Positions 15,074 through 64,000 of a DNA stretch of 64,000 bases are shown here, piece after piece. This DNA is from Antedon mediterranea (lineage: Eukaryota > Animalia > Echinodermata): the NCBI RefSeq assembly GCF_964355755.1, contig NC_092672.1:30324437-30388436 (forward strand), in the 5' to 3' direction. A model generated the notes under the pieces. The model worked only from the letters and a program-made list of their open reading frames with translations. It made no database searches and was not told the origin of the DNA. A program made the position numbers and the translations under genes. Each line of letters begins with the position of its first letter. Within the stretch, counting starts at the first letter, position 1.

Positions 15074-16004
15074 TTAATAATTGAATATTTTCACTGTTTT
15101 GTCTCCACTATTTGCCACTGCTACTCTACGTGGATTGTGAGATATGATGCATAATCCTCGAGGATAGTTGATTCCATCGTCTGCTTTATCAATCCTTTTA
15201 ATAAACTTTCCACTATTACTGAATAGCCGTAGTTTGTGGTCACTTGATATTATGATGCTGTCATTATCATCAACTACTACTCCTTTAGGGTGCTTTACCT
15301 TACCATCTACATCGCCCTCACCGACAAGAACTTTAATAAACTTTCCTTCATTATCAACTATTTTTAAACAGCTTTGGTCATAGTAAAGTGCAAGAATATA
15401 ATATCCTTGTCTTGTAAGGTTGACATCAATGATATTTATAAATCCAGAACCCGTAGTATCACATTGTGCTATTTTCTTAATGTGTTTGCCACTTTCAATG
15501 TTAAACATGGCTAAATTCTTATTATTAGCTACATACATGACACGTGATGCTTCATCCACATGAATACCACATGCATTTGTCAACTCTCCCTTACCAAATA
15601 ATTTAACCACCTCACCATTCATAGTGCATAACGTGATACAGTTATTACCTCGATCATTGAATGCTATGTTACCATTGTTCATTAAGAACATTCTGTTGAC
15701 ACACACACCTTCTGATAGTGTAACCTGACCAATGTATTTACCTGATTGATGGTATTTTTAAATGACATTGTCCCAACATGAAACAAGCAAGCAATCGTCT
15801 CCATATTTAACTACATTACGAACACCACGCCAACTATCCGAGGCTGTTTGTATGCTGTTTAATAATCCATCTTTCTCTACTCTAATATTCATTGGTGATA
15901 GTTTCTCCTGTTGGTTGTGTCAATGTAGCTTTTATGTCATTTGCATGTATTTCACATTCGTCAGTTTTTATTATTTTAACATAAATTGCTTGACCAGTTG
16001 TCAT
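15074..16004 (-). pseudogene. TRIM-NHL copy A, 3' half (filamin remnant + NHL propeller)
   Basis: Paralogous to 31454-32480. In-frame TAA at 15758-15760 and a ~113-bp microhomology deletion in the filamin domain at ~15898 relative to copy B. Interrupted at 16004 by a LINE. Confidence 0.9.
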
Positions 16005-16377
16005 CATTGATAGGACGTATAGAACGACACGGACGTGTTTTTAATCGTGCTCCTCAGTGTGTTTGGAATTTCAGTTGTTCCTTGTGAATTTGACTTTGCT
16101 TTGGTGTTTTGGATGTTTCCAGTCGTTATTATTTCACTTGTGAACATTCTTGATGGTATTTATGTTTGATCTGTGGTCCAATTTCGTGAATTTTAGATGT
16201 TTTTTGATGTATTTGTGCCATCGGAACTAAGGAATTCCGGATCACGCCGTGATTTGCATTTCGCGCCAAACCAGCTGCTGTAGTACGGTGTAGTACACTG
16301 ACTCGCTAGTTGATTAGCTGTACCGGTACAACAAACACAAATCTGGACCTATTTGAATTGCCTTATTTAACAACATA

Positions 16378-19300
16378 ATGGCTCTATTTAGTTGTTTGAT
16401 GACATTACTCTGCACATTATTTCTGAGATCAATCATATTTCAACCAGGTTCATTTGATTGTCTGGTTCGTCAACTCAGCTATCATAACGAAAATGTTCAC
16501 TATAACATCCGTGTCGGTGAGTCATGTTCTCTTTTTTTGCATACATGTGCTAGCATCAATAACACCACAAGAAAACGATATATAAGTAGGCCTGTGAGAT
16601 ATTACGCCAATCATTATTCGACTTTTAACCTATGTTTGTTGGTTAGTGGCGACATTCATCCTCACCCAGGCCCAGAGCTGAGCAAGAGCCAGCATATTGG
16701 AAACGGTAATAGTACGAAGAATACATGTGAATCTTGCGCTAAAACGACGAGACGCAATAAAAAATGTCTGATTTGCTGTGAATGTCATCACATATTTCAT
16801 ATCAAGTGCATACCTATGAGCAGCGATAGTTATGTGTTTTATCAAGATAATCCATGGGCGTGTAACATCTGCTCCCTACCACAACTATCGGACTCATTTT
16901 TTTACAACTCATTGATCAACAACAGTATATTGTCACTTGCATCCAGCAATACATCAACTGATTCTTCCATCTTTGAAACTAACCTTATTCAAGTTGCTTT
17001 ATTTAACGCCAGAAGTGTGGTGAATAAGATCGAAGAATTCCATGCGCGTATCGCAATTGATGAATTGGACATATTGATTGTCACAGAAACGTGGCTGGAC
17101 TCCTCTATTGATAGTACGGAACTGTTTCCAGACTCATTCGTTGTGTACAGAAAAGACCGTTCAAGACACGGTGGTGGTGTTCTGTTAGCTTTGAAGAACG
17201 CATTTAAATCCTCTATTGTTGACTTTCCTACTAACATTGAGGTCAAAATTATTGAAATAACTGTAAATAACAATTTTAACGTTTTAATATGTGCTGTTTA
17301 TAGGCCACCGAGTTCAAATGACGATTGGCTCAATCAATTCCACGATGTCGTTGATTTTATCCTATCTATTTTACATAAGTACTGTGGTATAATTTTAACT
17401 GGTGATTTTAATTATGATTACGGTGTTGATAGTCCCTTAGTTTATAAGAAATTTAAAGAAATTATTGCTCCACTTGATACTATACAATTTGTTGATTTTT
17501 TTACTCGTGTATCTAACACCAAAAGTAGCATTATTGATCTGGTCTTGTGCAATAACCCTGACATTGTATGTAATTTCAGAAGTAATCGTTGTCTTAGTAC
17601 AAGTGACCACCTTGGGGTTTATTTTAATATTAACGCTAGATGCAGTAAAGTTAAACCTGTAGATAGATATTATTATCAATATAGTAAATGTGACCATGAC
17701 GATCTTTTTACAACGTTGGGGGCGGTTCCTTGGGGACTGTGCCTGGAACAATCAAACTGTGAGGAAATGTGGGAAAATTTTAAAGACCTCTTTCTCGCCA
17801 CTATCAACGATTGTATCCCTAAAGTCAAAAGTAAAAAAAGAAACAGGCCAGCTTGGATAACTCAAGAAATGGTTATCATGGCTCGTAAAAAGAAACGAAT
17901 GCTAAAAGAGGCTTATCGTCATCCTCATAACCCAAGTAAGATGGACAAATATAGAAAGTTTAGTAATAAATTAAGAAACCTAACAAAAAAAGCTCATTTA
18001 CAATATATTAGGAAATTAAGTGCCGCCGGTGTAAATGGTGACTCCAAACGTTTTTTTAGTTATGTTAAGACTAGGCGTAAGACTGGACAAGTCAAAAACT
18101 TTGTTTTTAACGGTATACCCTTGGTTTCCGATATTGATGCGGTAAATGCATTTTCCACATTCTTTGCGTCAAACTTTAACGAACCTAATCGTAATTTCAA
18201 TGTTAACCATGAGATCTGTAATTGTGTTCACCCAGATATTGTTCCCCTTAATAACATTAATATTACTGAAAAAACTATTTTCGAGGCTCTGTTGTCATTG
18301 AAACCCAACAAATCCCCTGAACCAGACGGGATTACACCTAAAATGTTATCCATGTCAGCTCCAATTATTGCCCCAGTGTTGTGCAAAATGTTTAACAAGT
18401 TCGTAACGGATGGCTTTGTACCAAAAGATTGGAAACTCGCGAATGTCACTCCTATTTTTAAGTCAGGTAATCGGAACGATGTTAATAATTATCGACCCAT
18501 ATCGCTATGTTCTATTATAGGTAAGGTTTTTGAACGTATTATAGCAGATAACATTCTTTTTCATCTTCAATTTTTTGGATTTATAAGTCCCACGCAACAC
18601 GGGTTTTATCCAGGTAGATCGTGTATTACACAGGCCTCAGCGTTATATCATGATTGGTCACAAACAATGGATGTTAGACAACCTCCTGTAATTGATGCAA
18701 TATTCCTTGATTGGGAGAAGGCCTTTGACCGTGTTCCCCATGATTTAGTAATCAAGAAACTGCACAACATGGGAGTATGTGGATCTCTTCTAAAGTGTCT
18801 TCACTCCTTTCTCAGTGACAGATTCCAACGTGTTGTTCTTAATAAGGAGCATTCTGATTGGGATAGAGTGGGCTCGGGTGTTCCTCAGGGATCCGTGTTA
18901 GGCCCGCTTCTATTTAATCTCTTTGTTTATGACCTACCTCTAAATACCTCTTCTGTTATGAAGCAGTATGCAGACGATACAGTAATTTATAAACCTGTAT
19001 TCAGTCGTCATGATGCACTTACCTTACAACAGGATCTTTGTAAAATTTCCAAATGGTGTGAGGATAATAAAATGAAATTAAATGCAAAGAAGTGTAAAGT
19101 CATGCACATAACTAGGAAACGTAATTATATCCCTCATTTTATTTATACAATCGAATCCAATCCCCTTGAAGCTGTTAATTCACATAAATATCTTGGTAAT
19201 AACTTCTCACGTGATTTAACATGGTCTGCTCACGTTAATGATGTATCGATGAAATCTATGAGAATGCTTGGGTTTATCAAACGGTTTGTAGGTTTCAATG

Positions 19301-19434
19301 ACACCGAAATTTTACTACGACTTTTTAATGCACTATGTCGACCTGTTATTGAATATGGTGCTCCTGTGTGGGATCCACATCAAAAACAACATAATATAGC
19401 TATTAACAAGTCATTAAGACGGGTTACTAAATTG
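16378..19434 (+). CDS. LINE polyprotein, N-terminal 1019 aa: hydrophobic leader, 2A-like GDIHPHPGP, PHD finger, APE endonuclease, reverse transcriptase
   Basis: PHD CESC...CCECHHIFHIKC...WACNIC. APE motifs FNARSV, VTETWL, YRKDR, GGGV, YRPP, TGDFN, IDLV, SDH. RT motifs NYRPISL, QHGF, FLDWEKAFDRV, GVPQGSVLGPLLF, YADD, KYLG. The frame continues at 28064 once the insertion is removed. Confidence 0.92.
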
Positions 19435-19443
19435 CAATAGGTG

Positions 19444-20298
19444 TGGTGAATTTTGTCCAAGATGGGGAAATTTCTGTCCAGAATGGGGAAATATTTTGTC
19501 CAGAATAAGGACAAAAGCGATAGGTGGCGCTATAATCGTGTCCAAGATGGGGAAGCTGTCCAATATAGAGAAATCCGATTTGTCCAAAATGGGGAAATTT
19601 CTGTCCAAGATGGGGAAGTGGTGGCGCTATATCGTGTCCAAAATGGGGAAATTTCTGTCCAGGATGGGGAAGTGGTGGCGCTATATCGTGTCCAAAATGG
19701 GGAAATTTCTGTCCAGGATGGGGAAGTGGTGGCGCTATATCGTGTCCAAAATGGGGAAATTTCTGTCCAGGATGGGGAAGTGGTGGCGCTATATCGTGTC
19801 CAAAATGGGGAAATTTCTGTCCAGGATGGGCTTATGCTGTATCAAAAATAGGCAAGCTGTCCATATAAAGAAATCAGATTTGTCCAAAATGGGGAAATTT
19901 CTGTCCAGGATGGGGAAGTGGTGGCGCTATATTGTGTCCAAAATGGGGACATTTGTGTACAGGATGGGGAAATGCTGTGTCAAAAATAGAGAAGCTGTCC
20001 AATATAGAGAAATCCGATTTGTCCAAAATGAAGAAATTTGTGTCCAGAATGGGGAAATACTGTGTCTAAAATAGCGAAGCTGTCCAATATAGAGAAATCC
20101 GATTTGTCCAAAATGGGGATTTCTGTCCAGGATGGGGAAGTGCTGTGTCCAAAATAAAGAAGCTGTCCAATATAGATAAATCCGATTTGTCCGAAATGGG
20201 GAAATTTCTGTCTAAGATAGGGAAGTGCTGTGTCCAAAATAGAGCTGTCCAATATAGAGAAATCCGATTTGTCCAAAATGGGTAAATTTTGTCCAGAA
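19444..20298 (+). repeat. Left foldback arm: 54-bp units and shorter sub-units
   Basis: Four tandem gtggcgctatatcgtgtccaaaatggggaaatttctgtccaggatggggaagtg-type units, followed by variant units. Confidence 0.9.
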
Positions 20299-22520
20299 TA
20301 GTCATAGTCATAGTCATAGTCATATATACTTTATTGCCATTTAAAAAATAGAAATGTGATTTGAAAACTGGCAAAATACAAAAATATAAAATACAATTTA
20401 CAAAAACACACACAAAAAGTTAAGAGGCTAAAAATTGTTAAAATTAGATAAAAATTATCGGTTACATTTTACCTTTGTACTCTGGAGTTATATAAGTGTA
20501 TAGCATTAGGTACAAACGAGCACCTAAACCGTTTTGTTTTGGAGTATTAAGTGTACGTAGTCTTATGCCAGAATTCATGAGAGCAAATTGTTTGTGAAGA
20601 GGATGTGTTTCATCATCAATGATACTTTTTACTTTTTTTTAACACATTTTCTTTATACAAGGATTCAACATCAGGTAAGTGCTCTCCTACTAGTCTAATT
20701 GCTCTATTTCCTATTCGATTAAGTTTAATTTTATCTTTTTGCATTGTATTACCATAAAAACAAACATTACAAAAAAGTATTACACTGAGAATTACAGAGT
20801 TATAAAACAATTTAAGTATAGTTTTGTCAATTTGTAGGTACTTCATTTTTCTTAAAATAAACATCCTTTGGTTGGCTTTGCATGTGGCTTTATTTACATT
20901 ATCTATATATAAATTTACGTAAGGGCAAAATTAGATAAATCGCGGTTTATTTCTGGAATTTTTACTCGATGGTATATAAAGTTGGTTCGTACTTTCGGTA
21001 CTGATTTTCACCACCTGATGTAACCCTGTTTACTAATTAAATTAAGTTAGATAATTAGTTATTGACGATTAAAACGAATTTAGGTTCAACGATTTGCCCC
21101 AAATAGGGGTGTTTTCCGATCGTGGTATACACTGTCTAATTGATGTCCATCTTGAAAAATACCCGCAGACAATAATGCGAGGAGGCTTCGCATTTTCCTA
21201 TCTCTTCCTACGATAATTGTTTTTAATCGCTGAAAACCGGTTGAACAGCTAGAGTACAGCATCATAATGTTGAAGACAGGCCGATTTTCTTTAAAAAAAT
21301 TCTATTTTGATAGATTTAATATACGTTTATGCAAATGTATTGTTTTGAAATGAATGGAACATTCCAATCTCTGTTCCACAACTGTCTATTCCCTCAGGCG
21401 TCGTAAAGGCAAGTACTGTATACTCATAACAGAAATTCGATCCATTTTTTTTTTCAATCTGTGCTGCAGAGGTTGGATATAGATTTTTTTTAACGGATAA
21501 TGAGCTAGCGTTTTCATTCGCCGTATATTATGTACAAATCTTTATTATTGCAGTTAAACCACGCACGTGACATCATCACCCTTCCCTCACTGGCATGAGT
21601 AGCGTTGTAAAGCCAGTAGAGGATAGGCCTACGGTGCATCACATGCCCTAAACGCAGAACAACTTTGGTGGGTAGGGTTAGGAACCAATTAAGTATGAAT
21701 TGGCTCTAAGAAACAATTGAAAACCATTAGGCCTACTAATTAAGTTGACTTAGATAATTTAATATTTATTGACGATTAAATCGAATTTATGATTTGCCAC
21801 GAATAGGGGTGGTTTTCACAAATTGTTTTACATTATATAAACATATTATACACGTCGTAGTGATGTATCGTTACATTATATTTCAATCGACTAGGACGGT
21901 GATAGTTTCAACAAAGTGTTACATCGCAATGTTTTACTGTGTTTAGTGGTATATTATATGAAAACAATTAATATTTCGTTACTACATGGATAAAGAATAT
22001 ATTTAAAAATTGTTCCTCTTTGCACCCATCCTCTTTCCCATCCCTCAACCCTAATGTTACATACAAAACACAAATTAAATTTGTTTAAATTTTACTTAAA
22101 CAATTGGTCTCATTTTGTGACAAGTTTCTCTTTCGGAAGTAATTCCCAGGGTGCTACTTTTAGTTCAGTACATAAATCACAGTGCTATTTATTCGTTCCT
22201 GTAAACGACATGTATTATTGTCCTGCGGTACGTGCATTTGAAATCGCCAATTTTTTAACGCTGAAATTATTATGTATTCGAGAACCATCTGTGGGCACGA
22301 CCTAGATGGTACGCGAGCGAAGCGAGCGTACCATCTAGTTTATCCAATTTAGCTTATTGTCAATTATACAACCCAGATATTTGTACTCATTTACTACTTC
22401 AATCTCATTTTCATTTATAATCAGAGGTTCTAAGGGTTCTTTAATTTTCCTAAAATCAATTTGCATTTCTTTTGTTTTCTTTATGTTTAGTTTCAGGTTG
22501 TTATTGCAGCACCAGTGATG
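20298..22520 (-). mobile_element. 5'-truncated, decayed Rex1/Babar-clade LINE fragment split by a Helitron
   Basis: Minus strand reads HWCCNNNLKLNIKKTKEMQIDFRK...YKYLGCIIDNKLNWI|NNVNKATCKANQRMFILRKMKYLQIDKTILKLFYNSVILSVILFCNVCFYG..., then after a frameshift HPLHKQF...SG.RLR. Tail (ATGACT)n at 20298-20323. Confidence 0.8.
20902..22338 (+). mobile_element. Non-autonomous Helitron
   Basis: 5' TC(TATATAT), 3' CTAG, inserted between A and T with no TSD. Removing it restores the Rex frame N-W-I-N-N-V. Terminal hairpin ctagatggtacgc/gcgtaccatctag (22302-22338). Internal duplication ~21031-21115 and ~21734-21817. Confidence 0.85.
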
Positions 22521-22810
22521 GGGGGGGGGGGGGGGGGGGTTATTCCCCTTTTCTTTAATTGGAGGACAGGGCCTAAAAGTAGTGAAAGTAAGTGCTTAAC
22601 TAGTTTGATGTCCTATCTTTTGCAATACAATTTGGGAAATTCTACTGTTTATTATTAGGTCTTTTCAAGAATAGTTTGTTTAAAATCACATACAGTAATT
22701 ATTTATCATATCTAAGAGTGATATAATATTCCGATCTGCATAATATGTAAATGCAAGTAAATACATGTCGTAAATTAAGTTGGTCAAGATGAGTGTACTG
22801 TATATTTGGT

Positions 22811-25462
22811 TTTCTTTCTTTCTTTCATTTATTTGGCATCTCAATAAATAACATTAAAAATACATCAATAATAAATAAAATCACCTTAAATATTAATATA
22901 CATCAAAAAAGCAAATAAAAATGGCGGGATTAATGAAGTCTGACGATGCACGGGAAAACACATAAAGTCGTTTAAAGTAAAACAACTTAATTCCAATGTG
23001 GTCCCTAAAAAGATAGTAATTATAATTTTAACAAAACAAACATTATAAGACGGGGTTCATAAATATATAAGCATATAAGCAAAACATCTGATATAATGGC
23101 ACAATAATAATTTATCTATGTTTAATTTTGTAATATTGTTTCAATTCAGTTTTAAATTTAGATGTGTTGGAAATTTGTTTAATATAGTCAGGAAGGTTAT
23201 TCCATTCTCTGATTGCATTAAAATAGAACGTATTACATTCTATGCCTTGGACTTTAGGTACAACAAAATTGAGTTTACTACCACGAGTGAAGTGACCATG
23301 TAAGTTATTAACTCTACGAAAGTTTTCGTTTAGGTATGAAGCACTTCTGCCCATAAATATTTTATGAACTTGGCTAATTTGCAAGAACTTTACTCGATAT
23401 TTTACATTTAACAATCCATAATCGTCTAATTGATCAGCACCTATATGTCTTCTGGGTTCAACTCCTTTTATGAGTCTAACCATTTTGTTTTGAGCAATTT
23501 GTAGTTTTCTTTGGATAGCTTTACTGGTTCCACAGAACCAAGAAGATGCAGCATAATCAAAAACACATTGGATGAGAGCAGAGCATAATAGTTTACGATT
23601 CTTACAACTTAGTATCTTACGTTGGCGGTACATAAACTTAAGCCTATTATTAATTTTCTTAATGGTTTTACATGCATATTCAGAACACGTTAAATTTTGA
23701 TCTATTTCAATACCCAGATACTTGACACAATTACTAGTGTTGATATTGTTACCATTTGTTGAGACATTAAAATTGTTAACATTTTTAGTTTTTCTCTTAG
23801 AACCAAATAGTATACACTCAGTTTTATCCAGGTTAATTGTTAACTTATTGTCTACAAGCCAATCACACAAGGAGTCTAGTGTTGACCCTAGCTTCTTAGA
23901 AATAATATCTGGATTTCTGTGTGAATAAACAATTGCACTGTCATCAGCGTATAGAAGGAGTTTACAATCAGGATCAATACAAGTTACCATGTCATTAACA
24001 AAACATAAGAACAAAAGGGGTCCAAGGATACTTCCTTGAGGAACCCCGCATGTAACAGTACAAGATTGAGAGCAATGATCATCAACAGTTACTATTTGCT
24101 TTCTTATTGATAAGTAAGATTTGAACCATTCAATAGATCCAATACCCATTAATTTAAGCTTATTACATACAATGTCATGATCTACAGTGTCAAATGCCTT
24201 CTTTAAATCGACCAACACCATACCCGAGAAATTTCCCTTAGAAGTTTGGGTTTTAAGGGAATCAACTAAGTCTATCAAACATGTGTCAGTAGAGAAGGCA
24301 GCTCGAAATCCAGATTGATATTTATACAATACGTTGTTTTCAGTAAGGTATTTTTCGATTTGAATAAAAACAGCCTTCTCTAAAATTTTAGACATTGTAC
24401 TGAGTATACTTATAGGGCGATAGTTTCCAATATCGGTTCTACTACCTTTTTTATAAAGAGGTATGACCTTGGCCTTTTTCATGTCTTCTGGGACTGTACT
24501 GGTACTAATTGATAAATTAATTATGTAGGTAATGGGAACTTTTAGAATTTCAGCCCCATCTTTTATGAAGCGGGGAGGTATCTTATCGACACCCGTGCTT
24601 TTTGTCGCATTAAGTTTGTTTAATTCACTATATATAAAGTCTTCGTCCACTGAGTTGAGCATAAAGTTATTGCCACTAACGGTTCTATAGAAATCCTTAA
24701 GTTTGGACGACGTACAGTCATACACATTCTTAGGGGATGGAAGTTTACTGACCAAATTGGCTGCAATAGTAGTAAAATATTCGTTGAAGCAAGAAGCAAT
24801 TTTGGCTGGGTCGAAACATTTAGTACCATTGGGCAGGTCAATAACCGTTTTAGCACTATCCTTAGATGTATTACTATAGCCTAGACCTTTAAACATTTTC
24901 CATAATTTTTTAGGGTTATTTTTATTTTCTTCAGCCTTGTTTAACAAATGATTTGATTTAGCTTTATTTATATCACGCTGTATTTTATTTCTTAGTTTGC
25001 GAAATTGTATTAATAAGTCGGTATTATTCTTGTTTTTATTATACATATTTAATAATTTATCTCTGGTTTCAATGTCTTGTAATATTTCTCTAGTTAACCA
25101 TGGTTCCGTTCTTTGTTTCATCCTAATGTTTTTAAGGGGGGCAATGGAATCAATAGCAGCCAAAAGTAATGCATTAAATTTATACAGAGCTTCATTTACA
25201 TCTCCGATAGAGGTAACTACTGACCAATCGATATCTATTAGTATGTTTCTAAATTGATCAACGGTATAGTTTTTTAGTGATCTGATATATACATTTTTAT
25301 GTCCATTGAACTTAAGTTTAATAGTTTTCCTTGTACAAAATGTCATTAAGTGATCGCTTAGACCTCTTGCGATTGTACCCGATTGGCTTATCTTATTCTC
25401 ATTATTACATAATATATGATCGAGGCATGAAGCAACTGTAGGGCATATCCTAGTTGGTTCAG
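22811..25462 (-). mobile_element. 5'-truncated CR1/L2-group LINE (Crack/Daphne-like) inside the foldback element
   Basis: Uninterrupted ORF 23112-25462. 3' UTR with a gggaccacattggaattaag...ttatgtgttttccc stem-loop, aataaa and a (GAAA)n tail at ~22811-22826. Possible 5-bp TSD TTGGT (22806-22810 and 25463-25467). Confidence 0.85.
23112..25462 (-). CDS. Partial LINE ORF2: end of the APE endonuclease plus the complete RT
   Basis: EPTR...CLDHIL...LSDH (APE C-terminus), NYRPISIL, QSGFR, VDLKKAFDTVDH, GVPQGSILGPLLF, YADD, KYLG. The annotated Met lies in flanking sequence. Confidence 0.85.
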
Positions 25463-25824
25463 TTGGTGACATTTAAAAAAAATTATGATCTATTAATTTA
25501 ATTAATGAACTATAAACGTGAATTTGAGTATTTTACTTTGAAATAAAAAAACAATCACCGTATCCTGATGATAAAATAATAAATAAATCCATATCCTAGT
25601 AAAATATTTTCATTTTATTACAATTCTATGTAATTTTATTAGAATAAGTAGTCACATCATTTTCATTGTTTTTTTTTTGTATTAACAGGTGCTTTTGATT
25701 GGTTATTTGTTATTCGTAGGGCCACTGATAAAGTTTTGCAAGAGGAACACTTGTCAGTACCGGTACATTTTGTAATGTAATGTTTGTATTGAATAGGCTA
25801 CTGTAATCATTGATTGTTTATTAA

Positions 25825-27310
25825 TTAATACCCGCGGTCTGTGGTAAAAAAAAAATAAATAAATAAAAAAACAAAGAAAGAAAAAAAAAATAAATAAAAA
25901 GGATAAAAAGAAGGAAAAGAAGCGACAATCTGTATTAATTATATTAATAAATATCCTGTAGGCCTACTCTTTCTTGATGTGGTACTACTTTCTTTTGTGG
26001 TTTTTATGATTGGAATTTAATATAATATACTGTAGTTTTTAACGATTAACATAAGTAGACATAATAAATCAGCATAGCAATTCACTCCCTGGTAAATTTA
26101 AAGGAATACACATTGATAGAATAGTTGCTCACTAATAACATTTGTATAGACACAAAGTTTTTGAGAGAAATGTAACAAAAAAATAAATCTAATTGAGCAT
26201 GATAAACCTTACAGAAAATGCAAAGCACTGGCTGTAATCATATTTTAATATCAACATAATTATTAGCCCTAAACTATGCCTATTTGGAGTAGGAAATAAC
26301 GCAATTAAAGCACTAATATTACTAATATGCAAACACTCGTATACTATTGTAAAATGAGAAAAATTAGGCCAAATATTGCACGATTTGTCAATGATATCAC
26401 TTTGTTTATAGCTGGAAATTAATGATTCGGCGTGTACGTTTGATTTTAAACCATTGAGTTACTATAATAACTCAAGGATTCCATCATGTGGTCGAAATTC
26501 CATGTGGAATTACTGCATGTGACGGTAGATTAATACCCGCGGTCTGTGGTAAAAAAAATAAAATAAAAAATAAAGAAAAAAATAAAAAAAAGAAAAAGGA
26601 TAAAAAGAAGGAAAAGAAGCGACAACCTGTATTAATTATATTAATAAATATCCTGTACTCTTTCTTGATGTGGTATAATGATGTCGGTGCCGGTACTACT
26701 TTCTGTTGTGTTTTTTATGGTTGGAATTTAATATAATATACTGTAGTTTTTAACGTTAGATAAAAATGTATAGAATCAGTGAAAATTTACTTTAGAGGTA
26801 AATTGGAACCATTTCACTCAATAAATGTTCATTATACTTAAAAATAGCTGATAAAGGTGTCACATATTTACCAACCTGTACTTTGAAACTGTTTCCAGGC
26901 TGAGTAACGTAATTATTTTAAGGGGATAAGAGCCTATTTTGAGCCTGAATTTTACCTGTGGGACGATAGATTAATACTCGTGGTCTGTGGTCGAAAAAAA
27001 GGTTAAAAAAAGATAAAAAGGTAGAGATAGAGAAGGAAATAAAAAGAAATTGAAGATGATAAAAAAAAGAAGTGACAACCTGTATTAATTATATTAATAA
27101 ATATCCTGTACTCTTTCTTGATGTGGTATAATAAGGGCGGTGACGGTACTACTTTCTGTTGTGGTTTTTATGGTTGGAATTTAATATAATATACTGTAGT
27201 TTTTAACGTCAGATAAATGTATACATTCAGTGAAAATTTACTTTAGAAGTAAATTGGAACCACATCCGTCACTAAATGTTTATTATACTTAAAATTAGCT
27301 GATAACGGTG
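25825..27310. repeat. Three related ~220-440-bp repeats inside the foldback element
   Basis: ttaatacccgcggtctgtggt + A-rich tract + gcgacaa(t/c)ctgtattaattatattaataaatatcctgta... at ~25825, ~26530 and ~26971. Copies 2 and 3 share a further ~110 bp. Confidence 0.85.
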
Positions 27311-27489
27311 TTAATTATATAATTAATAGAACACTTTTCCACTTCAAATGTACTTTTAAAGTGTTAACATAGTACTGTTATTATTGTGTACATTTTGTAA
27401 TGTTTTCAGATTAGAAGTGTGAACTTAATTAAAGTTTTTAAAACAAAAAAAAGTTTCTTATGTTGTGTTAATGTTTTGCCTTCTCTATA

Positions 27490-28046
27490 TTGTACAGCTT
27501 CCCTATTTTAGACACAGTATTTCCCAATTTTGGACAGAAATGTCTTTATTTTGGACAAATCGGATTTCTCTATATTGGACAGCTTCACCATCTTGGACAC
27601 AGCACTTCCCCATTCTGGACAGAAATTTCCCCATCCTGGACAGAAATTTCCCCATTTTGGACAAATCTGATTTCTCTATATGGACAGCTTGCCTATTTTT
27701 GACACAGCATAAGCCCATCCTGGACAGAAATTTCCCCATTTTGGACACGATATAGCGCCACCACTTCCCCATCCTGGACAGAAATTTCCCCATTTTGGAC
27801 ACGATATAGCGCCACCACTTCCCCATCCTGGACAGAAATTTCCCCATTTTGGACACGATATAGCGCCACCACTTCCCCATCTTGGACAGAAATTTTCCCA
27901 TTTTGGACAAATCGGATTTCTCTATATTGGACAGCTTCCCCATCTTGGACACGATTATAGCGCCACCTATCGCTTTTGTCCTTATTCTGGACAAAATATT
28001 TCCCCATTCTGGACAGAAATTTCCCCATCTTGGACAAAATTCACCA
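27490..28046 (-). repeat. Right foldback arm (inverted copy of the left arm, three 54-bp units)
   Basis: Reverse complement of 19444 onward; the ORF track gives near-identical peptides on opposite strands. Confidence 0.9.
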
Positions 28047-28063
28047 ACCCGTCTCCTAAATTG

Positions 28064-28402
28064 TGTGTTGAAGGCGATTTCACTGATAGGCTTAAGATTC
28101 TAAATTTACCAGATATGGTTCAAAGAATGAAATTTCATAGTATAATTTTTGTAGTTAAGTGTTTGCATAATTTAATTGATTTTGATATATTTGAATACCT
28201 TACAATTAATTCTCGGTATCCAGAGTCCCTCACCTTTAAACACATGTATGCTAGAACTAATGCATTTAAATACTCCCTGTTTGTTAATTTCCCTCGAATA
28301 TGGGAATGTATCCCGCATGAAGTTCGTAACAAAGTCCTGTTTAACTTTGGGGGGTTTAGAAGGGATTTGAAAAAATGTATTACTGATATCGAATTCATCT
28401 AG
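28064..28402 (+). CDS. C-terminal 112 aa of the split LINE ORF (reconstructed total ~1131 aa)
   Basis: CVEGDFTDRLKILNLPDMVQR...ARTNAFKYSLFVNFPRIWECIP is a typical CR1-group C-terminus, in frame with the 16378 ORF across the TSD. Confidence 0.85.
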   Translation, partial: CVEGDFTDRLKILNLPDMVQRMKFHSIIFVVKCLHNLIDFDIFEYLTINSRYPESLTFKHMYARTNAFKYSLFVNFPRIWECIPHEVRNKVLFNFGGFRRDLKKCITDIEFI

Positions 28403-52817: not shown

Positions 52818-54977
52818 TTAATAATTGAATATTTTCACTGTTTTGTCTCTATTTGCCACTGCTACTCTACGTGGATTGTGGGATATGATGCATAATCCTC
52901 GAGGATCGTTGATTCCATCTTCTGCTTTATCAATCCTTTTAATAAACTTTCCACTATTACTAAATAGCTGTAGTTTGTGGTGACTTGATATTATGATATT
53001 GTCATTATCATCAACTAGTACTCCTCCTGGGCTATTCACCTTGCCATCTTCACCGCCTTCATCAACAAGAACTTTAATAAACTTTCCTTCATTATCAAAT
53101 AGTTTTAAGCAGCTTTGATTAAAGTAAAGTACAAGATTATATCCTTGTCTTGTAAGGGCGACATCAATGATACTTACAAAAAAAGAAAAAGACGTATCAT
53201 ATGGTGCTATTTTCTTAATGAGTTTGCCGCTTTCAATGTTAAACATGGCTACATTCTCATCATTAGCTACATACATGATACGTGATGCTTGATCCACATG
53301 GATACCATGTGGACATGTCAACTCATCCTTACCAAATGATTTAACCACTTCACCATTCATAGTGCATATTGTGATGCATTCATTACCACGATCACTAAAT
53401 GCTATATTACCAGTGTTCATTGTGAACATTCTGTTGACACGCACACCTGATAGTGTAACCTTACCAATGTATTTACCTGATTGCTTGTATTCGCGAATGA
53501 CATTGTCCCAATATGAAACAAGCAAGCAATCGTCTCCATGTTTAACTACATCACAAACACTAAGTAACCTGTCCAAGGATATTTGTATGGTTTTTAATAA
53601 TCCTTCTTTCTCTACCTTAATAGTCATTGGAGACTTCTTAATTGGTTCACCATCAACTCTAACGTCAACCTTGCAAATTCCTGCACTTTTACATATACCT
53701 ATCACAGTATAGTCACCATTGACATCCTCTTCTACGTCAGTGATTGTAGTTTCTCCTGTTGGTTGTGTCAATGTAGCTTTTATGTCATTTAGATGTATTT
53801 CACATTCATCAGTTTTGATTATTTTAACATTAATTGTTGGCAATGTCATACTCTCAGCTCCTCTTAATTCTAAATAGTCCGCCCTTGATTGCGTTACAAT
53901 TCCAATATCCTTCTGTAATAAATTAATTTGTTGATTGTTTTTAACAAATTTAATCTCAGCATTAACATCAGGTTTTGTTTTAGGTACTGCACTGATCCTA
54001 TCACCCAGTGATGTGATGACGTCATTACCGGATAACATTGCCGTTGCTTCATTGCCCTTCCCTAGGTGGTGGAGCAAATGGATGTTTGTAGTTATGTACG
54101 ATATCGTCGTTGTAACATCCTCTATTTCGGCATCAGTCGCCTTCCTTTTGATTTTGTACATAGCCTCCACCTCACTTTTTAATTTGTCTCCACTTTCTTT
54201 AATTCTTGTTACCAATTCCTTGACGTGATTATCAATTCCTCTCAAACTCTTTTCCTTCTTTTCATCAAGTTTCTTAACACGACCAGTCATTACTTTAAGA
54301 TCATCCTTTAATTTATCTGTACATTGTTTTGCCTCTCTCTCCAATCCTGCTGACGTTTGTTTAAACGTTTTAAACGCATCTTTTATGCTGATGGTCACGT
54401 GTTTGTCTTTTCCCTCCCATTCCTTGTGATCCATGATTGAACAGTGTATACAAATGGCAACTTTGCATATATTACAAAACACAGTTAAAGGTTCATTGTG
54501 GACGGGACAGAGAGGCGGATGCATCGCATTGATTTCACTTACACTCATAGATCGAACATCTTCCACTGAATGCAACTTGTGGTTTTTACAAGCTGGAATG
54601 TTCTTATGAGCATCACTACAAATATGACACAAATATCGTCTACACTCCTGACAGTAGGTTTTAGATCGACCTTCCTTACCACAGATACATTTTGTCTCAT
54701 CTGTATTTGAAAACTGTTCAATTGTTTCTAACAAATTATTCACAAACGTGTTTGGTAGTAATTTCTTTAAACCGCCCTCTGGAATCTGATAAGATTTGGA
54801 GCAAGTTGGACAGCTTACCTTGATAGTTTTCTTAGACCAGTTGTCAAGACAACTCAGACAGAAGCTGTGAAGACATGTTAAGGTTCTGGGTTCGTTGAGT
54901 CGATTAAAGCATATTTGGCACTCTAGCACCTTCTCATCAATATCTTCTAGAAATTTAGCCAGCTCACTGGAAGCCAT
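52818..54977 (-). CDS. TRIM-NHL copy D, 719 aa, intact
   Basis: Same domain order as copy B, uninterrupted ORF, acceptor tttacag upstream of the ATG at 54977. Confidence 0.92.
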   Translation of the reverse strand: MASSELAKFLEDIDEKVLECQICFNRLNEPRTLTCLHSFCLSCLDNWSKKTIKVSCPTCSKSYQIPEGGLKKLLPNTFVNNLLETIEQFSNTDETKCICGKEGRSKTYCQECRRYLCHICSDAHKNIPACKNHKLHSVEDVRSMSVSEINAMHPPLCPVHNEPLTVFCNICKVAICIHCSIMDHKEWEGKDKHVTISIKDAFKTFKQTSAGLEREAKQCTDKLKDDLKVMTGRVKKLDEKKEKSLRGIDNHVKELVTRIKESGDKLKSEVEAMYKIKRKATDAEIEDVTTTISYITTNIHLLHHLGKGNEATAMLSGNDVITSLGDRISAVPKTKPDVNAEIKFVKNNQQINLLQKDIGIVTQSRADYLELRGAESMTLPTINVKIIKTDECEIHLNDIKATLTQPTGETTITDVEEDVNGDYTVIGICKSAGICKVDVRVDGEPIKKSPMTIKVEKEGLLKTIQISLDRLLSVCDVVKHGDDCLLVSYWDNVIREYKQSGKYIGKVTLSGVRVNRMFTMNTGNIAFSDRGNECITICTMNGEVVKSFGKDELTCPHGIHVDQASRIMYVANDENVAMFNIESGKLIKKIAPYDTSFSFFVSIIDVALTRQGYNLVLYFNQSCLKLFDNEGKFIKVLVDEGGEDGKVNSPGGVLVDDNDNIIISSHHKLQLFSNSGKFIKRIDKAEDGINDPRGLCIISHNPRRVAVANRDKTVKIFNY

Positions 54978-57967: not shown

Positions 57968-59999
57968 TGTATTAAGCTCCCGAGGCCAACATCAAAGGGA
58001 CAATTATGTGCATGGCCTAGCCTTCGCTAACATTCGAATCTAGATGGAAGCAGATGATTATTTAAGTTAAAGTTAACTTAGGAACAGCACTGTACTAGGC
58101 GTGTTAACTAATGAATGTATTGCATTCGTTGAATCGTGAGAACATATCCATTAGTTGTGATCAACGTTGAATAGGACAATGAGGCATTCGACCCATGGAC
58201 AATTATTATGTACGTATATAATAAATAATATAAAATGTATTTTAACCCACTCTCCTGGGAGGGAAAGTGTTGACAAAGAGCAAGACAGTAGTAAAAGAGC
58301 CTTACCTTGTTTGTTCTTTCCTTCCAAGGTCCAAGATCCAATCTTTGCGAGGGTTAACTCACGACTGTTTTCTACCTCATTCCCTAAGCATCAAATAAGA
58401 TTTGGTTAAAAAGCACAACTAAGCTTATCTATCCTGTATTAGGGAGTTACTTGCCGTTGGATGTGCAAACAAGATTAAACAAATAAAACCTCTGAACAGA
58501 ATGGCTGAAGAACTTTTATTCTAACTTACGTTTTTGTGTGTCAATTGATTAGTCTTTGATTTTGTAGACTGGCACAAATGCTCTCATATGTAAGTTGAAA
58601 CAAAATGGTTCCGATATGAATTACTAATGTCCTTTGACGTTTTATTATAGCATATTGATTCGTCTATATACTGTAGTCTATTAACAGAATGTTTCCGAGC
58701 GGAAACGTTAAGAATCATATAGACCTACGAAAGACACCACAATGATTATAATAAAGGGTTAATCAGTTATGTTTACCCTACTCTCAAAGAGGGCTCATAC
58801 TATGACTTTGTTTTTCTGTAGGTTTAATATGTTTAAAGTATTAACATAATAAACTACCACAATAAACACATATTCCAAAGAAATGACAATATCGTACTTG
58901 TTATAATTTGTAAGTATAATAACTACGATTAAATGCAGAATAATCCTCATGTACAGTAACGTGAAATCACGTTGTAGACTTGTGACGTTTTTTGATATGT
59001 ATTCTCTGTTCTTGTTTGGTTATTGTATTTTTGGTATGTGGACGTAAATTATTAAACAGTGTGCATGATTTTTGAAACTTGGTAATTTTTCGGAAAACTG
59101 AAATGCATTTTGTGTCATCGTTTTTTGCTAAATTCAATTCAAGCATATCGCAATGATTTACGACATTACTACCATCGGCCTATACAATCAACCATTTCAA
59201 GTTTGTATGCAAATAGATTTATTTCATAAAGACTATGACGTCAACAGGAAACTTTATTGTATTCTGACAGTCGGTCCTTTTCGATGTGTTTCAGTATAAA
59301 CCCACTTATTTTTGAATTATTTAAAACACATTTTGTCTTTCCAAATGTGCTGTGGTGCCTAATGATATTTAAAATATTTGTTATTTGTTCTTCAAAGTCA
59401 GAGTGGTAGGTAGGGAGTAACGGTGTAGCTTTCTCATTCTTATTCAGTATTACATTAGTAGCAGAGTCTCATTCCGATGATAAAAACGATGTAGCTTCTT
59501 CATTATCATGGCTCGCTTGACTATCGTCTGCTAACCTTAATGGTGCTAACGTAACAGTAATGTTTCTGTCTGTATTCTTTATTATTAATATTGTTTGTTA
59601 TAATCTGTAATATTGTTTGAAATAATCTTGTTTACGAACCTCAGATTAATCGATTATTAACGAGTATCTCCATTTTTAACATTTAAATCATTTATATTAC
59701 GACATACTTTGGTCATACTAATAACTGTTTATAAAAAGTTACCTAATGATGTACACTTAACTCCATGGTGATTTGTTTTGCTCTCACCTCTGCCTTGTCT
59801 ATTTCCTGCTATTATTCAAAATAATTAAATATAATAAAAATAATCCATTAAGCACTTGTACTGTGGTTATACTATTGTTTGGCTGGGTGCTTTTTTGTAG
59901 TTTGAATCTAGTTAACATAATACATAAAAACACATAATTATGCGGACACTTGACTTCTTCGTTTGCTTCATGTTTACTGTATAAAATATCTGGTGATAC

Positions 60000-62083
60000 C
60001 TTAATGAATCATTTAACAATAACAACCACATCAATTATCTCAATATTCGGAAGTTTCTATAAATATTCTTTCAAATATTCAGAATGCACAATTTTTCGAA
60101 TTGTTTACTGCGCGTTTACAAGAGCCTAATCTCCTTACCTAACAATGGTACCGATTTCTCTTATTGTACGGAAGAAATCCGATAATATATGTATTGGTTG
60201 TTCTATTCATGTCACCGGGGAGTTTTAAATCCCATTCCTCCATTATTCATCAACATGTTTGTATTTATTTAAATCAATTGGATCACCGTTCAATGTATGT
60301 AAACAAATTAACTGGACTTAAGAACAAATAAAAAAGAAAAGTTAGTTTTACATCCCTTTTTTATCTATTATTGTGGAGCCGAAATAATGTTATTTTTAGT
60401 TATTTTTTCATAAATAAAAAACCGTGTTTATTCGAGTAAACAACCCGCTTTGAATAAACGCCTTCCTCGAATAAACTCCGCCATAGAACAGCTCCTTGGG
60501 CCTTTATTTATTTCCTCGAATAAACAACCCGTCACATGCATACTATATACATTTCTATTTGTAACACTTCATTGATTGACATTTTGATACCATTTTTACT
60601 GTATATTATCACTTTTTGATATTAAATGTGTTACCATATTACAACCAAAAAAATAAATGCATCCCCCGAATAAACGAAAACGAGCGTTTATTCGAATAAT
60701 CGTTCAAATTATTGTATGATCTCGAGTGTGTTCCGAGGTATGTAAACGTTAATTAAACATTTTTTACCGTATATAAAATAATCGGGAATAAAACTGGAAT
60801 AATCGTGTATTCAATGCCATGACCGTGATCTTTAAGTGTTCCAATGTGTGTAAACGTTAAATGAACATTTTAAACTAACCGTAATGCAAATATTTTTTTT
60901 TTTTTGGCCTAACGTTTACTATGTAACATAAAGAAAGAATTATAATCTTAAGTAATCTTAACAAATTATTATAATGTAGGCTACTGAAACATCTAAATAA
61001 TGTTTACATTGTTGATGTACTTTTATATAAACATTGTGATTCGGATCAACGTAAAATATACATATAATATGAATGACGACAATTTATGAGAGAGATTTTA
61101 TTTTTGTATGAAAACCAACACACAGTATCTAAAACTGAAGTAATGGAGAAAATTAAGTGAAAACCTGACCTATTTTATTTTTTTTCTCTTTTGTGGCGTT
61201 AACCACTAATTTTATTCATTTCATTTTCAAATGATCAATAAAATGATTTTATACATCTTCCTAATTTATATTATTCTAAAGTTGTTTTTACCAATTATTT
61301 TCTTATATTTTCTCCTATTTTTTTATACGATTTGATAAAAAATAATTCGATCACTATAGTATGTTCGTAAAAGTTCTATATAGTTATATGTCTCGCATTA
61401 TCCATCTTTTTTCATAATTTTCATTTATTTTGCTACTTGCTCTACATCTAAAACTTAAATATTTAAATGTACTAAAAAAAACAGTTTCTATTTCAATGTA
61501 TCTTAATTATTTTTCACAGTTTCCTTGTTTTATATTTATCCCTATTTTATTGTACCCACAAATTAACCTTAAATAGTAAGTTCATTTAAATAATGTATTA
61601 TCAATTAATGATAGGTCCTTATTCCTAATAAAAAAATAAAATAAAACTACAATGCAATGATGATAAATGACGGGAAGGTACCTAAAGTAATTATGAATTA
61701 CAAAGTAATTATGAATTACACAGTAATTATGAATTACACATTGCTATAAACGTTAATGTATTTTAATAGTATATTTTTACAGAATGCATAGGCCTTTTTA
61801 TTTATAAAACATATATACTAATGCAGTTAATATTATACAGCATTATTCGCCATCACTGCATAAACCTGATAATTGAATATAAACAGTTTCACAGCATTCA
61901 AATAAAATTTTGTATTATTAAATAGCGATTACGCCTTTTTTCTATATTTATTTTGTTCACACGTTATTCTTTTTTATTAATAATTGATAATGTTCACTAT
62001 GATTTGAATATGATTTTAGTGTTTTAATTAACCATAAAAGTGTATGTCGTAAGCTTACTGAAGCGTAGCTTATTAATCATTAT
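60000..62083. repeat. Segmentally duplicated 3' spacer of the TRIM unit (paralogous to ~13690-15073 and ~51300-52817)
   Basis: Long shared runs, e.g. ttattgtacggaagaaatccgataatatatgtattggttgttctattcatgtcaccggggagttt at ~13860 and ~60161. Confidence 0.85.
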
Positions 62084-64000
62084 TTAATAATTGAATATTT
62101 TCACTGTTTTGTCTCCATTTACCACTGCTACTCTACGTGGATTGTGTGATATGATGCATAATCCATATGTAATGCTGATTCCATCTTCTTTTTTATCAAT
62201 TCTTTTAATAAACTTTCCACTTTTACTAAAAAGCTGTAGTTTGTGGTCACTTGATATTATGATGTTGTCATTATCATCAACTACTACTCTTTTTGGGTAC
62301 ATCACCTTACCATCTTCATCGCCCTCATCGACAAGAACTTTAATACCTTCATTATCAAATAGTTTTAAGCAGCTTTGGTCACAGTAAAGTATAAGAATAT
62401 ATCCTTGTATGTGAGATCAATGATATTTACATATTGAAAGCCAGTAGTATCACATATTCTCTTAATTAGTTTGCCACTTTCAATGTTAAACATGGCTACA
62501 CATCCATATTTAGCTACATACATTACACGTGATGCTTCATCCACATGAATACCATGATGATTTGTCAACTGTCCCTTACCAAATGATTTAACCACCTTAC
62601 CATTCATAGTGCATAATGTGATGCATTTATTTCCACGATCACTGAATGCTATGTTACCATTGTTCATTAACAACATTCTGTAGACACTCACACCTTCTGA
62701 TAGTGTAACCTTACCGATGTATTTACCTGTTTGCTTATATTTGTAAACACCATTGTCCAAACATGAAACAAGCAAGCAATCGTCTCCATATTTAACTACA
62801 TCATAAACATCTTTATCTATTTTGATATTGTTTAATAATCCTTTTTTCTCTACCATAATAGTCATTGGTGACTTCTTAATATGTTCACCATTAACTCTAA
62901 CATCAACCTTGCAAATCCATGCACTTGTACATATACCTATCACAGTATAGTCACCATTGTCATCTTCTTTTACTTCAGTGATGATAGTTTCTCCCGTTGG
63001 TTGTGTCAATGTAGCTTTTAAGTCATTTGCATGTATTTCACATTCGTCAGTTTTATTATTTTAACAGGAATTGGTTGACCAGTTGTCATACTCTCAGCTC
63101 CTCTCAATTCCAAACAGTCTGCTGCCCTCAACGTTGTAATCATTCAAATGTCATTCTGAAATGAAGCCATTTTTTGATGGTTTCTCACAAAGTTAATCTC
63201 AGCATTAAAATCATGTTTTGTTTTAGGTACTGCCTTGATTCTATCATCCAGTGCTGTGATGACGTCATTACCGGATAACATTGCCGTTGCTTCATTGCCC
63301 TTCCCTAGGTGGTGGAGCAAATTGATATTTGTATTTATATACGATATCGTCTTTGTCACATCCTCTATATCGGCATCAGTTGTCTTCCTCTTGATTTTGT
63401 ATATTGCCTCCACCTCACTTTTTAATTTGTCCTCACTTTCTTTTATTCTTGTTACCAATTCCATCACGTGATTTTCAATTCCTCTCAAACTCTTTTCTCT
63501 GTTTTCATCTAGTTTCTTAACACAATCAGTCATTACTTTAAGATCATCCTTTAATTTAGCTGTACATCTTTTTGCCTCTCTTTCCAATCCTGCTGACGTC
63601 TGTTTAAACGTTTTAAACACATCTTTTATGCTGATGGTCAAGTGTTTGTCTTTTCCTTCCCATTCCTTGTGATCCATGATCGAACAGTGTATACAAATGG
63701 CAACATTGCATATTTTACAAAACACAGTTAAAGGTTCATTGTGGACAGAACACAGAGGCGGGTGCATGGCATTGATTTCATTTACACTCATAGATCGAAC
63801 ATCTTCCACTGAATGCAACTTGTGGTTTTTACAAGCTGGAATATTCTTATGAGCATCATTACAAATGTGACACAAATATCTTCTGCACTCCCGACAGTAG
63901 GTTTTAGATCGACCTTCCTTACCACAAATATATTTTGTCTCATCTGTATTTGAAAACTGTTAAACTGTTTCTAACAAATTATTTAGAAACGTGTTTGGTG
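62084..64000 (-). pseudogene. TRIM-NHL copy E; decayed, RING portion beyond the window end
   Basis: Split into ORFs 62084-62305, 62365-63009 and 63144-63875 by indels (~62345, ~62410, ~63055) and a stop at 63144-63146. First B-box Cys changed to Tyr. Confidence 0.88.

What the first reader, a model, noticed from the sequence alone, without database searches (positions are those of the whole stretch)
15074..64000. Birth-and-death array of TRIM-NHL genes with hypervariable propeller-top loops: candidate diversified intracellular receptor/E3 system
Seen: five same-strand copies whose RING, B-box2 and NHL beta-strands are highly similar (e.g. GIHVDEASRVMYV, MFNIESGK, NEGKFIKVLV, VDDNDNIIISS, GLCIISHNPRRVAV). 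The residues flanking each NHL proline and following strand 2 differ in nearly every copy (A/B/C/D/E): LT-NAC/RPR/YPS/CPH/NHH; V-KHPK/KYPR/KHPQ/NSPG/MYPK; I-NYPR/TCPQ/TFPY/NDPR/SITY; NNK/NNH/DHG/NDE/KYG; SS-DH/ED/HH/HH/DH. There is also an indel-rich loop after KIA. Established: the corresponding loops form the top face of NHL propellers, which is the RNA-binding face in Brat and LIN-41/TRIM71. Inference: a fixed E3-ligase chassis with a rapidly diversifying recognition surface, plus 3 of 5 copies damaged, is the pattern of an innate-immune or anti-parasite receptor family rather than a developmental TRIM-NHL.
Basis: partly seen in the sequence, partly recalled or inferred. Interest (0 to 1): 0.82.

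Follow-up and report, generated by a model that had tools for sequence, protein, structure and literature searches.

The report
Feather-star hypervariable-propeller TRIM ligase array
This feather-star DNA holds five tandem copies (two intact, three broken) of a ubiquitin-ligase-type gene whose predicted propeller domain is under positive selection on its ligand-binding face and shows none in its front half, which likely makes the family an untested repertoire of intracellular pathogen sensors, like vertebrate TRIM5 but built on a different binding domain.

Summary
Confirmed and strengthened. The window (Antedon mediterranea by protein identity) holds five minus-strand RING–B-box–coiled-coil–filamin–NHL genes. 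B and D are intact. C and E are broken, and A is split by a 12.6-kb nested LINE insertion. Using my own codon models, the propeller is under positive selection (M8 vs M8a 2ΔL 48; ω about 6 on 12% of codons); the N-terminal half is not (ω 0.40). All 12 well-supported sites are in the propeller, 10 on or beside the top face. Twelve blade-equivalent rim codons change 33 times at positions 1–2 and twice at position 3. The signal survives CpG, double-hit and free-rate terms but weakens (p 0.012 site-blind). 58 Anneissia domains vary at the same positions. A conserved ortholog pair keeps 23 of 23 rim residues. The top face is not consistently basic, so Brat/LIN-41-type RNA binding is unlikely. The immune role is inferred; no ligand or expression is shown. 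Ten paper searches found no report of this pattern in NHL-type TRIMs. The scan has noted it before in sea star, sea urchin, oyster and clam (unreviewed).

The parts
15074..16004 (-). Copy A, 3' half (part of filamin plus NHL propeller); pseudogene with a 113-nt deletion and a TAA stop at B-codon 491
16005..28611 (+). 12.6-kb insertion splitting copy A at about B-codon 378: an endonuclease/RT LINE (ORF 16357-19440, remainder to about 28402, AATAA tail), flanked by a duplicated TCAT
   Evidence: compared with the uninterrupted site in copy E
19444..28046 (.). 8.6-kb element with long inverted arms (333 nt, 100% complementary, built of short tandem units) inserted in the LINE; it carries a second LINE RT ORF at 23112-25472 (-)
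28612..29691 (-). Copy A, 5' half (RING, B-boxes, coiled coil); start region lost, 4 frameshifts
30233..31293 (-). Upstream block of copy A, homologous to those of B and D; the donor-like site is lost
31454..33610 (-). Copy B, intact single-exon ORF of 718 aa (P0001): RING 18-59, B-box1 97-133, B-box2 157-193, coiled coil 198-330, filamin about 366-458, six-bladed NHL 459-718
31457..32236 (-). NHL propeller of B. Rim codons 469/471 (32198-32206), 510/512 (32075-32083), 552/554 (31949-31957), 599/601 (31808-31816), 647/649 (31664-31672), 689/691 (31538-31546); b-c loop codons 485-486, 527-528, 570-571, 617-618, 664-665, 708-709
35088..36564 (-). Upstream block of B: predicted promoter and non-coding first exon. 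Donor-like AAG|GTAAGG at about 35365; acceptor CAG at 33624-33622, 11 nt before the ATG (predicted 5'-UTR intron)
   Evidence: splicing is inferred from motifs only
37828..39956 (-). Copy C, full length with one 1-nt deletion near 39228 (B-codon 247); a recent pseudogene or an assembly error (not tested)
52818..54977 (-). Copy D, intact single-exon ORF of 719 aa (P0002)
58002..59478 (-). Upstream block of D (donor-like site at about 58305; acceptor at 54991-54989)
62084..64000 (-). Copy E, pseudogene (stops at B-codons 87 and 359; frameshifts near 63054 and 62410); its 5' end lies beyond the window. The public model P0041 matches it in pieces around the breaks

Best explanation
These are members of a crinoid-expanded family of TRIM-NHL genes whose propeller top-face rim is under positive selection, and they likely act as a germline-encoded repertoire of intracellular sensor-ligases that recognise fast-evolving pathogen or parasite molecules. 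Shown: domain anatomy, tandem duplication and decay, purifying selection on the RING/B-box/coiled coil, and positive selection concentrated on equivalent rim positions of the blades. Inferred mechanism: the coiled coil dimerises two chains; each propeller binds a copy-specific ligand on its top face (more likely protein or a mixed surface than RNA, since the face is not consistently basic); clustering on the ligand would activate the intact RING to ubiquitinate the target or build a signalling chain, as in TRIM5/TRIM21 (recalled). New specificities arise by duplication and rim substitution, and obsolete ones decay.
For: Selection, own GY94 codon code on 5 copies: NHL (258 codons) M8 vs M7 2ΔL 51.3, M8 vs M8a 48.3, M2a vs M1a 47.9, ω about 6 on about 12% of codons. 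N-terminal 354 codons: M0 ω 0.40 and no gain for selection models. Whole gene, 694 codons: 12 sites with posterior at least 0.9, all 12 in the propeller; 9 in top loops, 1 at the top end of strand a, 1 in strand c, 1 at the bottom. In 34 null simulations the largest 2ΔL was 5.7. The 12 blade-equivalent rim codons show minimum changes of 19/14/2 at codon positions 1/2/3, against 45/40/67 in the other 219 codons. Their ω is 4.7 with CpG and double-hit terms, and p is 3e-4 even with a free rate for these codons. The intact pair B vs D alone: 9/7/0 differences in 11 rim codons; 0 of 12 rim residues identical against 141 of 166 non-top residues. Independent replicate: 58 Anneissia NHL domains have mean entropy 3.0 bits at the same 12 positions against 0.91 on the bottom face; 29 close pairs are 94% identical off the top face and 35% at the rim. 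Control: the conserved relative P0141/P0226 from the same two species keeps 88 of 89 top-face and 23 of 23 rim residues. All 8 RING zinc ligands are invariant in 44 of 44 aligned proteins. The NHL tree clusters by species, with 3 label changes against a shuffled mean of 16.6. Precedent: fish class IV TRIM multigene families with selected B30.2 loops (PMC3137616, passages); human TRIM56 needs its NHL-like domain for flavivirus restriction and binds viral protein and RNA (PMC13236048, passages).
Against: No ligand, induction or phenotype was observed. Only five DNA sequences were available, three of them pseudogenes. Adding site-to-site rate variation and double hits to the site-blind test cuts 2ΔL to 8.9 (p 0.012). 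The whole top-face class has ω 1.43 with a shared synonymous rate (p 0.024 against 1) but 1.01 with a free rate (p 0.96), and synonymous divergence is also raised on the top face (4-fold sites 39 of 194 against 10 of 175 bottom and 33 of 339 strand; non-independent pairwise counts). Recombination is evident in the N-terminal half (p 0.003), though not in the NHL (p 0.22). No ISRE-like or kB-like motif lies in the conserved upstream blocks. Human TRIM32 binds influenza PB1 through its coiled-coil/linker fragment (PMC4461266, passages), so an antiviral TRIM-NHL need not use the propeller top.
Confidence: 0.65

Rival explanations
1. The diversifying selection is real, but the opponent is internal or social: the propellers would recognise transposon products, selfish elements or allorecognition/gamete determinants rather than pathogens.
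For: The selection data do not name the opponent. The locus is rich in mobile elements.
Against: The proteins show no signal peptide or membrane segment in the predicted model, which fits cell-surface allorecognition poorly. Known TRIM arrays with this signature are tied to viruses (PMC3137616, PMC3845644; passages).
Confidence: 0.2
2. The copies are diverged RNA-binding post-transcriptional regulators of the Brat/LIN-41 type, each likely acquiring new RNA specificity after duplication.
For: The filamin-NHL fold matches zebrafish Lin41 (Z 32.9, rmsd 5.5, 348 aligned). NHL top faces are known to be evolutionarily plastic between subfamilies (PMC5908797, passages). Arg is the commonest residue (15%) at the position after the rim proline.
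Against: Net charge over top-face positions has median -2 (range -11 to +6) in 72 crinoid domains and is -11 in both B and D (a residue count, not an electrostatic calculation), whereas Brat and LIN41 bind RNA with a basic top face (PMC4015489, PMC5908797; passages). LIN41 RNA-contact residues are mostly identical between species. Rapid gene death fits developmental regulators poorly.
Confidence: 0.08
3. The pattern is relaxed constraint on surface loops of redundant duplicates, inflated by mutation hot spots, gene conversion and alignment error; there would be no selection for diversity.
For: Three of five copies are dead; whole-top ω is about 1 with a free rate; synonymous divergence is higher on the top face; the CpG multiplier is about 3-4 and double hits are non-zero.
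Against: Third codon positions at the rim are nearly frozen while positions 1-2 change (33 against 2; 16 against 0 for the intact pair). Bottom loops, equally exposed, have ω 0.25-0.3. The signal persists without the indel-rich loops. The same positions vary in a second species, and a conserved relative shows the opposite pattern.
Confidence: 0.07

Closest known systems
TRIM-NHL proteins (class C-VII / Marin subfamily C: TRIM2, TRIM3, TRIM32, TRIM45, TRIM56, TRIM71/LIN-41, Mei-P26, Brat)
   Same: RING, two B-boxes, coiled coil, filamin and six-bladed NHL propeller; best fold matches are TRIM2/TRIM3 NHL (Z 33.6, rmsd 2.7, 255 aligned).
   Different: Known members number a few per genome (three in flies, four in C. 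elegans, five in mammals; PMC4015489 passage) and are conserved. Here there are dozens of species-clustered paralogues with single-exon ORFs, frequent pseudogenes and a positively selected, not consistently basic, top face. In the primate screen, TRIM2's two selected sites lay outside its known domains (PMC3845644).
Class IV TRIM arrays: TRIM5/TRIM22 and fish finTRIM, btr and trim35/hltr families
   Same: Multigene birth-and-death families with a RING/B-box/coiled-coil front and a C-terminal ligand-binding domain whose variable loops are hypervariable and positively selected (PMC3137616 passages).
   Different: The recognition domain here is a filamin-NHL beta-propeller rather than B30.2/PRY-SPRY, which is described as vertebrate-restricted in subfamily G (PMC3503706 table passage). 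No ligand is known here.
Human TRIM56
   Same: RBCC with two B-boxes and a divergent NHL-like propeller; an antiviral role that needs the propeller for some viruses (PMC13236048 passages).
   Different: A single gene with a disordered linker before the propeller; no array. Orthology to the crinoid family was not tested.
Conserved crinoid relative P0141 (Anneissia) / P0226 (Antedon)
   Same: Same architecture, length and C-terminal motifs; about a third identical to B in the propeller.
   Different: 95% identical between the two species with an invariant top face; a possible parent-like gene under purifying selection.

Membership tests
TRIM-NHL (class C-VII / subfamily C) | N-terminal C3HC4 RING | tested here: met
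   Pfam PF00097 above cut-off in B and D; 8 of 8 ligands invariant in 44 of 44 aligned proteins
TRIM-NHL (class C-VII / subfamily C) | One or two B-boxes followed by a coiled coil | tested here: met
   PF00643 at B-box2 (above cut-off in D, just below in B); B-box1 by conserved Cys/His pattern; predicted helix 198-307
TRIM-NHL (class C-VII / subfamily C) | Filamin domain before the propeller (in most members) | tested here: met
   PF00630 above cut-off in B and D; fold match spanning 361-716 to Lin41 filamin-NHL
TRIM-NHL (class C-VII / subfamily C) | Six-bladed NHL beta-propeller | tested here: met
   24 strands at pLDDT mostly above 90; top fold and sequence hits are NHL domains. Pfam NHL misses B and D but hits relatives
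TRIM-NHL (class C-VII / subfamily C) | E3 ubiquitin-ligase activity | not testable with these tools
   Intact RING ligands only
RNA-binding LIN-41/TRIM71 and Brat subfamilies | Basic top surface | tested here: not met
   Net top-face charge median -2, range -11 to +6 in 72 domains; -11 in B and D. A residue count, not a computed potential
RNA-binding LIN-41/TRIM71 and Brat subfamilies | Top-face ligand residues conserved among homologues | tested here: not met
   0 of 12 rim residues shared by B and D; entropy 3.0 bits in Anneissia
RNA-binding LIN-41/TRIM71 and Brat subfamilies | Orthology to TRIM71, Brat or TRIM2/3 | not tested
   No tree with named reference TRIM-NHL sequences was built; sequence hits rank TRIM2/3 first
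Class IV restriction-factor arrays (TRIM5, finTRIM, btr, trim35) | C-terminal B30.2/PRY-SPRY domain | tested here: not met
   No SPRY hit in Pfam; the C-terminal fold is a propeller
Class IV restriction-factor arrays (TRIM5, finTRIM, btr, trim35) | Lineage-specific multigene arrays with positive selection on ligand-binding loops of the C-terminal domain | tested here: met
Class IV restriction-factor arrays (TRIM5, finTRIM, btr, trim35) | Binding or restricting a pathogen; induction on infection | not testable with these tools
   No challenge data or binding assay available

The most novel reading that the evidence does not exclude
Marine invertebrates without B30.2-type TRIMs have repeatedly built a TRIM5-like intracellular immune repertoire on the NHL propeller. 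In feather stars, dozens of sensor-ligases diversify the same two or three residues per blade like a six-fold paratope, giving a germline-encoded, antibody-like cytosolic targeting system for pathogen proteins; scan notes suggest the same holds in other echinoderms and bivalves.
Probability: 0.5. Interest if true: 0.85.

Novelty: new variant of a known kind. Interest (0 to 1): 0.66.

Why it matters
Cytosolic pathogen sensing in invertebrate deuterostomes is poorly mapped, and TRIM-NHL proteins are known mainly as few, conserved developmental RNA regulators. A positively selected multigene family on this scaffold names specific residues and specific paralogues (B, D, and an invariant relative as control) for ligand pull-downs, so the question of what invertebrates use in place of TRIM5-type restriction factors becomes testable. 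A naturally variable binding face fused to an E3 ligase is also a candidate scaffold for targeted degradation.

Tried and rejected

A single-sequence fold of the filamin-NHL part failed (mean pLDDT 44); the alignment-based model was used instead.

My first reading of six copies was wrong: two fragments are halves of one gene.

Expression: no RNA holder was listed among 10 runs. Four runs were laid as contigs. Run X8, of unrecorded kind, covers the coding stretch of D and a piece just downstream of it while barely covering a nearby high-copy repeat, as an RNA run might. Run X10 (guessed RNA) follows the repeat pattern of the DNA-like runs. No splice joint at the predicted 5'-UTR intron was among the 15 joints shown (159 more not shown). 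None of this is used as evidence for or against expression, and summed contig depth was not used as copy number.

ISRE-like GAAANNGAAA occurs 13 times in the window (shuffle mean 5.9), but none lies in the conserved upstream blocks of A, B or D; one kB-like site lies at 13917, outside them.

The ESM Atlas gave unnamed NHL clusters at score 0.94 (and two mostly mollusc clusters at 0.90) with no functional lead.

The careful tree did not finish; the quick tree was used.

Literature: 10 searches returned no paper describing a positively selected invertebrate TRIM-NHL array. Term searches in PMC7653742, PMC4346834 and PMC6289776 found no TRIM, NHL or B-box passage. PMC8382680 lists only an expanded bivalve B-box orthogroup. 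Supplements were not read and may tabulate such families; most subscription journals are not searched.

The C frameshift was not checked against reads. No complex prediction was run.
Full report
Source and anatomy. The window is 33% GC animal DNA. Copies B and D are in the protein collection on a 38,962,182-base contig, the same length as that of P0041, named Antedon mediterranea. P0041 matches copy E at 99.5% over its first 216 residues, so the source is taken to be this feather star. tblastn and a DNA alignment give five minus-strand genes. B (31454-33610, 718 aa) and D (52818-54977, 719 aa) are uninterrupted ORFs. C (37828-39956) has one 1-nt deletion. E (62084 to beyond 64000) has two stops and two frameshifts. 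A is in two halves, 28612-29691 and 15074-16004, which meet at about codon 378: the uninterrupted site in E reads through a TCAT that is duplicated on both sides of a 12.6-kb insertion. The insertion is a LINE, itself split by an 8.6-kb element with 333-nt perfect inverted arms carrying a second LINE. B, C and D share an acceptor-like CAG 11 nt before the ATG, and A, B and D share a 1-1.5-kb upstream block with a donor-like site in B and D. The duplicated unit therefore probably includes a promoter, a non-coding exon and one coding exon; this is inferred from motifs.

Domains and fold. Pfam finds RING, B-box2 and filamin in B and D but not NHL. PDB sequence search ranks TRIM2, TRIM3, Thin, TRIM71 and Brat NHL domains first. 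An AlphaFold2 model from a 44-sequence alignment has 24 strands in residues 459-717 at pLDDT mostly above 90. Foldseek and VIA-align match it to TRIM2/3 NHL (Z 33.6, rmsd 2.7, 255 aligned) and to Lin41 filamin-NHL. By the published definition, loops b-c and d-a form the top face and loops a-b and c-d the bottom (PMC4015489, passages). I assigned every propeller codon to top, bottom or strand from the model's strand list.

Where the variation is. Of positions covered by at least four copies, 27 of 83 top, 2 of 71 bottom and 10 of 98 strand positions have three or more residues (p 8e-7 and 3e-4). Codons near indels, frameshifts and stops were masked first.

Selection. PAML is not available, so I wrote GY94/F3x4 site models. 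In 34 null simulations the largest M2a-M1a 2ΔL was 5.7. On the propeller (258 codons, five copies), M8 beats M7 by 51.3 and M8a by 48.3, and M2a beats M1a by 47.9, with ω about 6 on about 12% of codons. On the N-terminal 354 codons there is no gain, and M0 ω is 0.40. On the whole gene (694 codons), all 12 sites with posterior at least 0.9 (naive empirical Bayes) are in the propeller, 10 on or beside the top face. Stress tests weaken but do not remove this. Without the indel-rich loops 2ΔL is 43.2; with double hits 26.9; with gamma rate variation 9.1; with both 8.9, p 0.012. The top face taken whole has ω 1.43 with a shared synonymous rate and 1.01 with its own rate, against 0.29-0.30 for the bottom. 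Synonymous divergence is also higher on top, so much of the top face is merely unconstrained or escapes homogenisation. The excess lies in the two residues flanking the x-P-x-G motif, or its equivalent, in each blade. These 12 codons have minimum changes of 19/14/2 at positions 1/2/3, against 45/40/67 in the other 219. Their ω is 6.8, or 4.7 with CpG and double-hit terms, and p against neutrality is 3e-4 even when these codons get their own rate; it is 3e-3 using only B, D and C. The intact pair B and D differ at 9/7/0 positions in 11 rim codons. These positions were chosen after seeing the data, so the independent checks below matter more.

Independent replicate and control. Of 82 hits at E at most 1e-20, 77 are crinoid (16 Antedon counting B and D, 61 Anneissia; some may be alleles or isoforms), and identity then falls to 23-24%; further, more distant crinoid members turned up (20 of 20 looked up were crinoid). 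From the 82 I kept the 73 propeller segments with at least 220 aligned residues (58 Anneissia, 14 Antedon, 1 outgroup). In Anneissia alone, mean entropy is 3.0 bits at the 12 rim positions, 1.78 on the top face, 1.04 in strands and 0.91 on the bottom (top against bottom p 3e-9). The 29 Anneissia pairs at least 90% identical off the top face (mean 94%) are 35% identical at the rim. By contrast, a relative of the same architecture that is 95% identical between the two species (P0141/P0226) keeps 88 of 89 top-face and 23 of 23 rim residues, against 156 of 165 elsewhere in the propeller. Top-face variability is therefore not a property of the fold. The quick tree of 76 rows clusters by species (3 label changes, shuffled mean 16.6), and the five window copies group together at SH-aLRT 86, which fits repeated local expansion.

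Mechanism. Shown: an intact zinc-ligand set in the RING (44 of 44), purifying selection on the front half, positive selection on the propeller rim, and gene birth and death. Inferred: the rim contacts a ligand that changes quickly, and the RING acts on it. Brat and LIN41 bind RNA with a basic top face, and LIN41 contact residues are conserved across species (PMC4015489, PMC5908797; passages). Here the net top-face charge has median -2 over 72 domains and is -11 in B and D, so a protein or mixed ligand is more likely. The closest working analogy is the class IV TRIM arrays, where B30.2 loops are hypervariable and selected (PMC3137616, passages). Human TRIM56 shows that an NHL-like propeller can serve antiviral restriction (PMC13236048, passages). 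Dimerisation and activation by clustering are recalled from TRIM5/TRIM21 and come from no call. I put pathogen or parasite recognition at 0.65, internal conflict at 0.2, RNA regulation at 0.08 and artefact or relaxation at 0.07. Nothing here shows expression, induction or binding.

Novelty. The genes are members of TRIM-NHL subfamily C (PMC3503706, passages) and are already annotated as TRIM2/3/45/71-like. They fail the B30.2 test for class IV but evolve like it. Ten literature searches (listings and abstract starts seen) and term searches in ten papers (passages only; no supplements, no whole texts) found no account of a positively selected invertebrate TRIM-NHL array; coverage is limited to open papers. 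The scan's own unreviewed notes describe the same pattern in a sea star, a sea urchin, oysters and a clam, and RBCC fusions elsewhere in this genome. I read them after my selection tests and did not test them. They are not independent support, but they suggest the pattern is widespread. Verdict: a real feature and a new variant of a known kind; the evolutionary signature is well supported and the immune function remains a prediction.

Noticed in passing
window 16005-28611: Three-layer nested insertion: a LINE inside TRIM copy A, split by an 8.6-kb foldback-like element with 333-nt perfect inverted arms, which itself holds a second LINE. The perfect arms and the near-intact 1027-codon LINE frame suggest recent events.
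   Followed up: partly
window 43275-44183 and 48724-49179 (-): An unrelated gene with KY-like immunoglobulin domains (PF23265) and a possible N-terminal MGCGSS exon sits between copies C and D.
   Followed up: no
window 45584-48234: A 2.6-kb high-copy element with about 830-nt inverted arms (92% alike); contigs of runs X1 and X5 join across 45600-48203, as at an empty site.
   Followed up: no
window copies C and A (5' half), B-codons 94-144: A run of shared derived changes in the B-box1 region suggests a gene-conversion tract between C and A.
   Followed up: partly
proteins P0141 / P0226: A 95%-identical ortholog pair in the two feather stars with the family's architecture but an invariant propeller top; a candidate parent or conserved-function member.
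   Followed up: partly
protein P0085 (Anneissia, 1939 aa): A fused gene model in which the first RBCC-filamin unit appears to end in an MLLE domain (542-605) instead of a propeller, a possible C-terminal domain swap; scan notes report other RBCC fusions in this genome.
   Followed up: no
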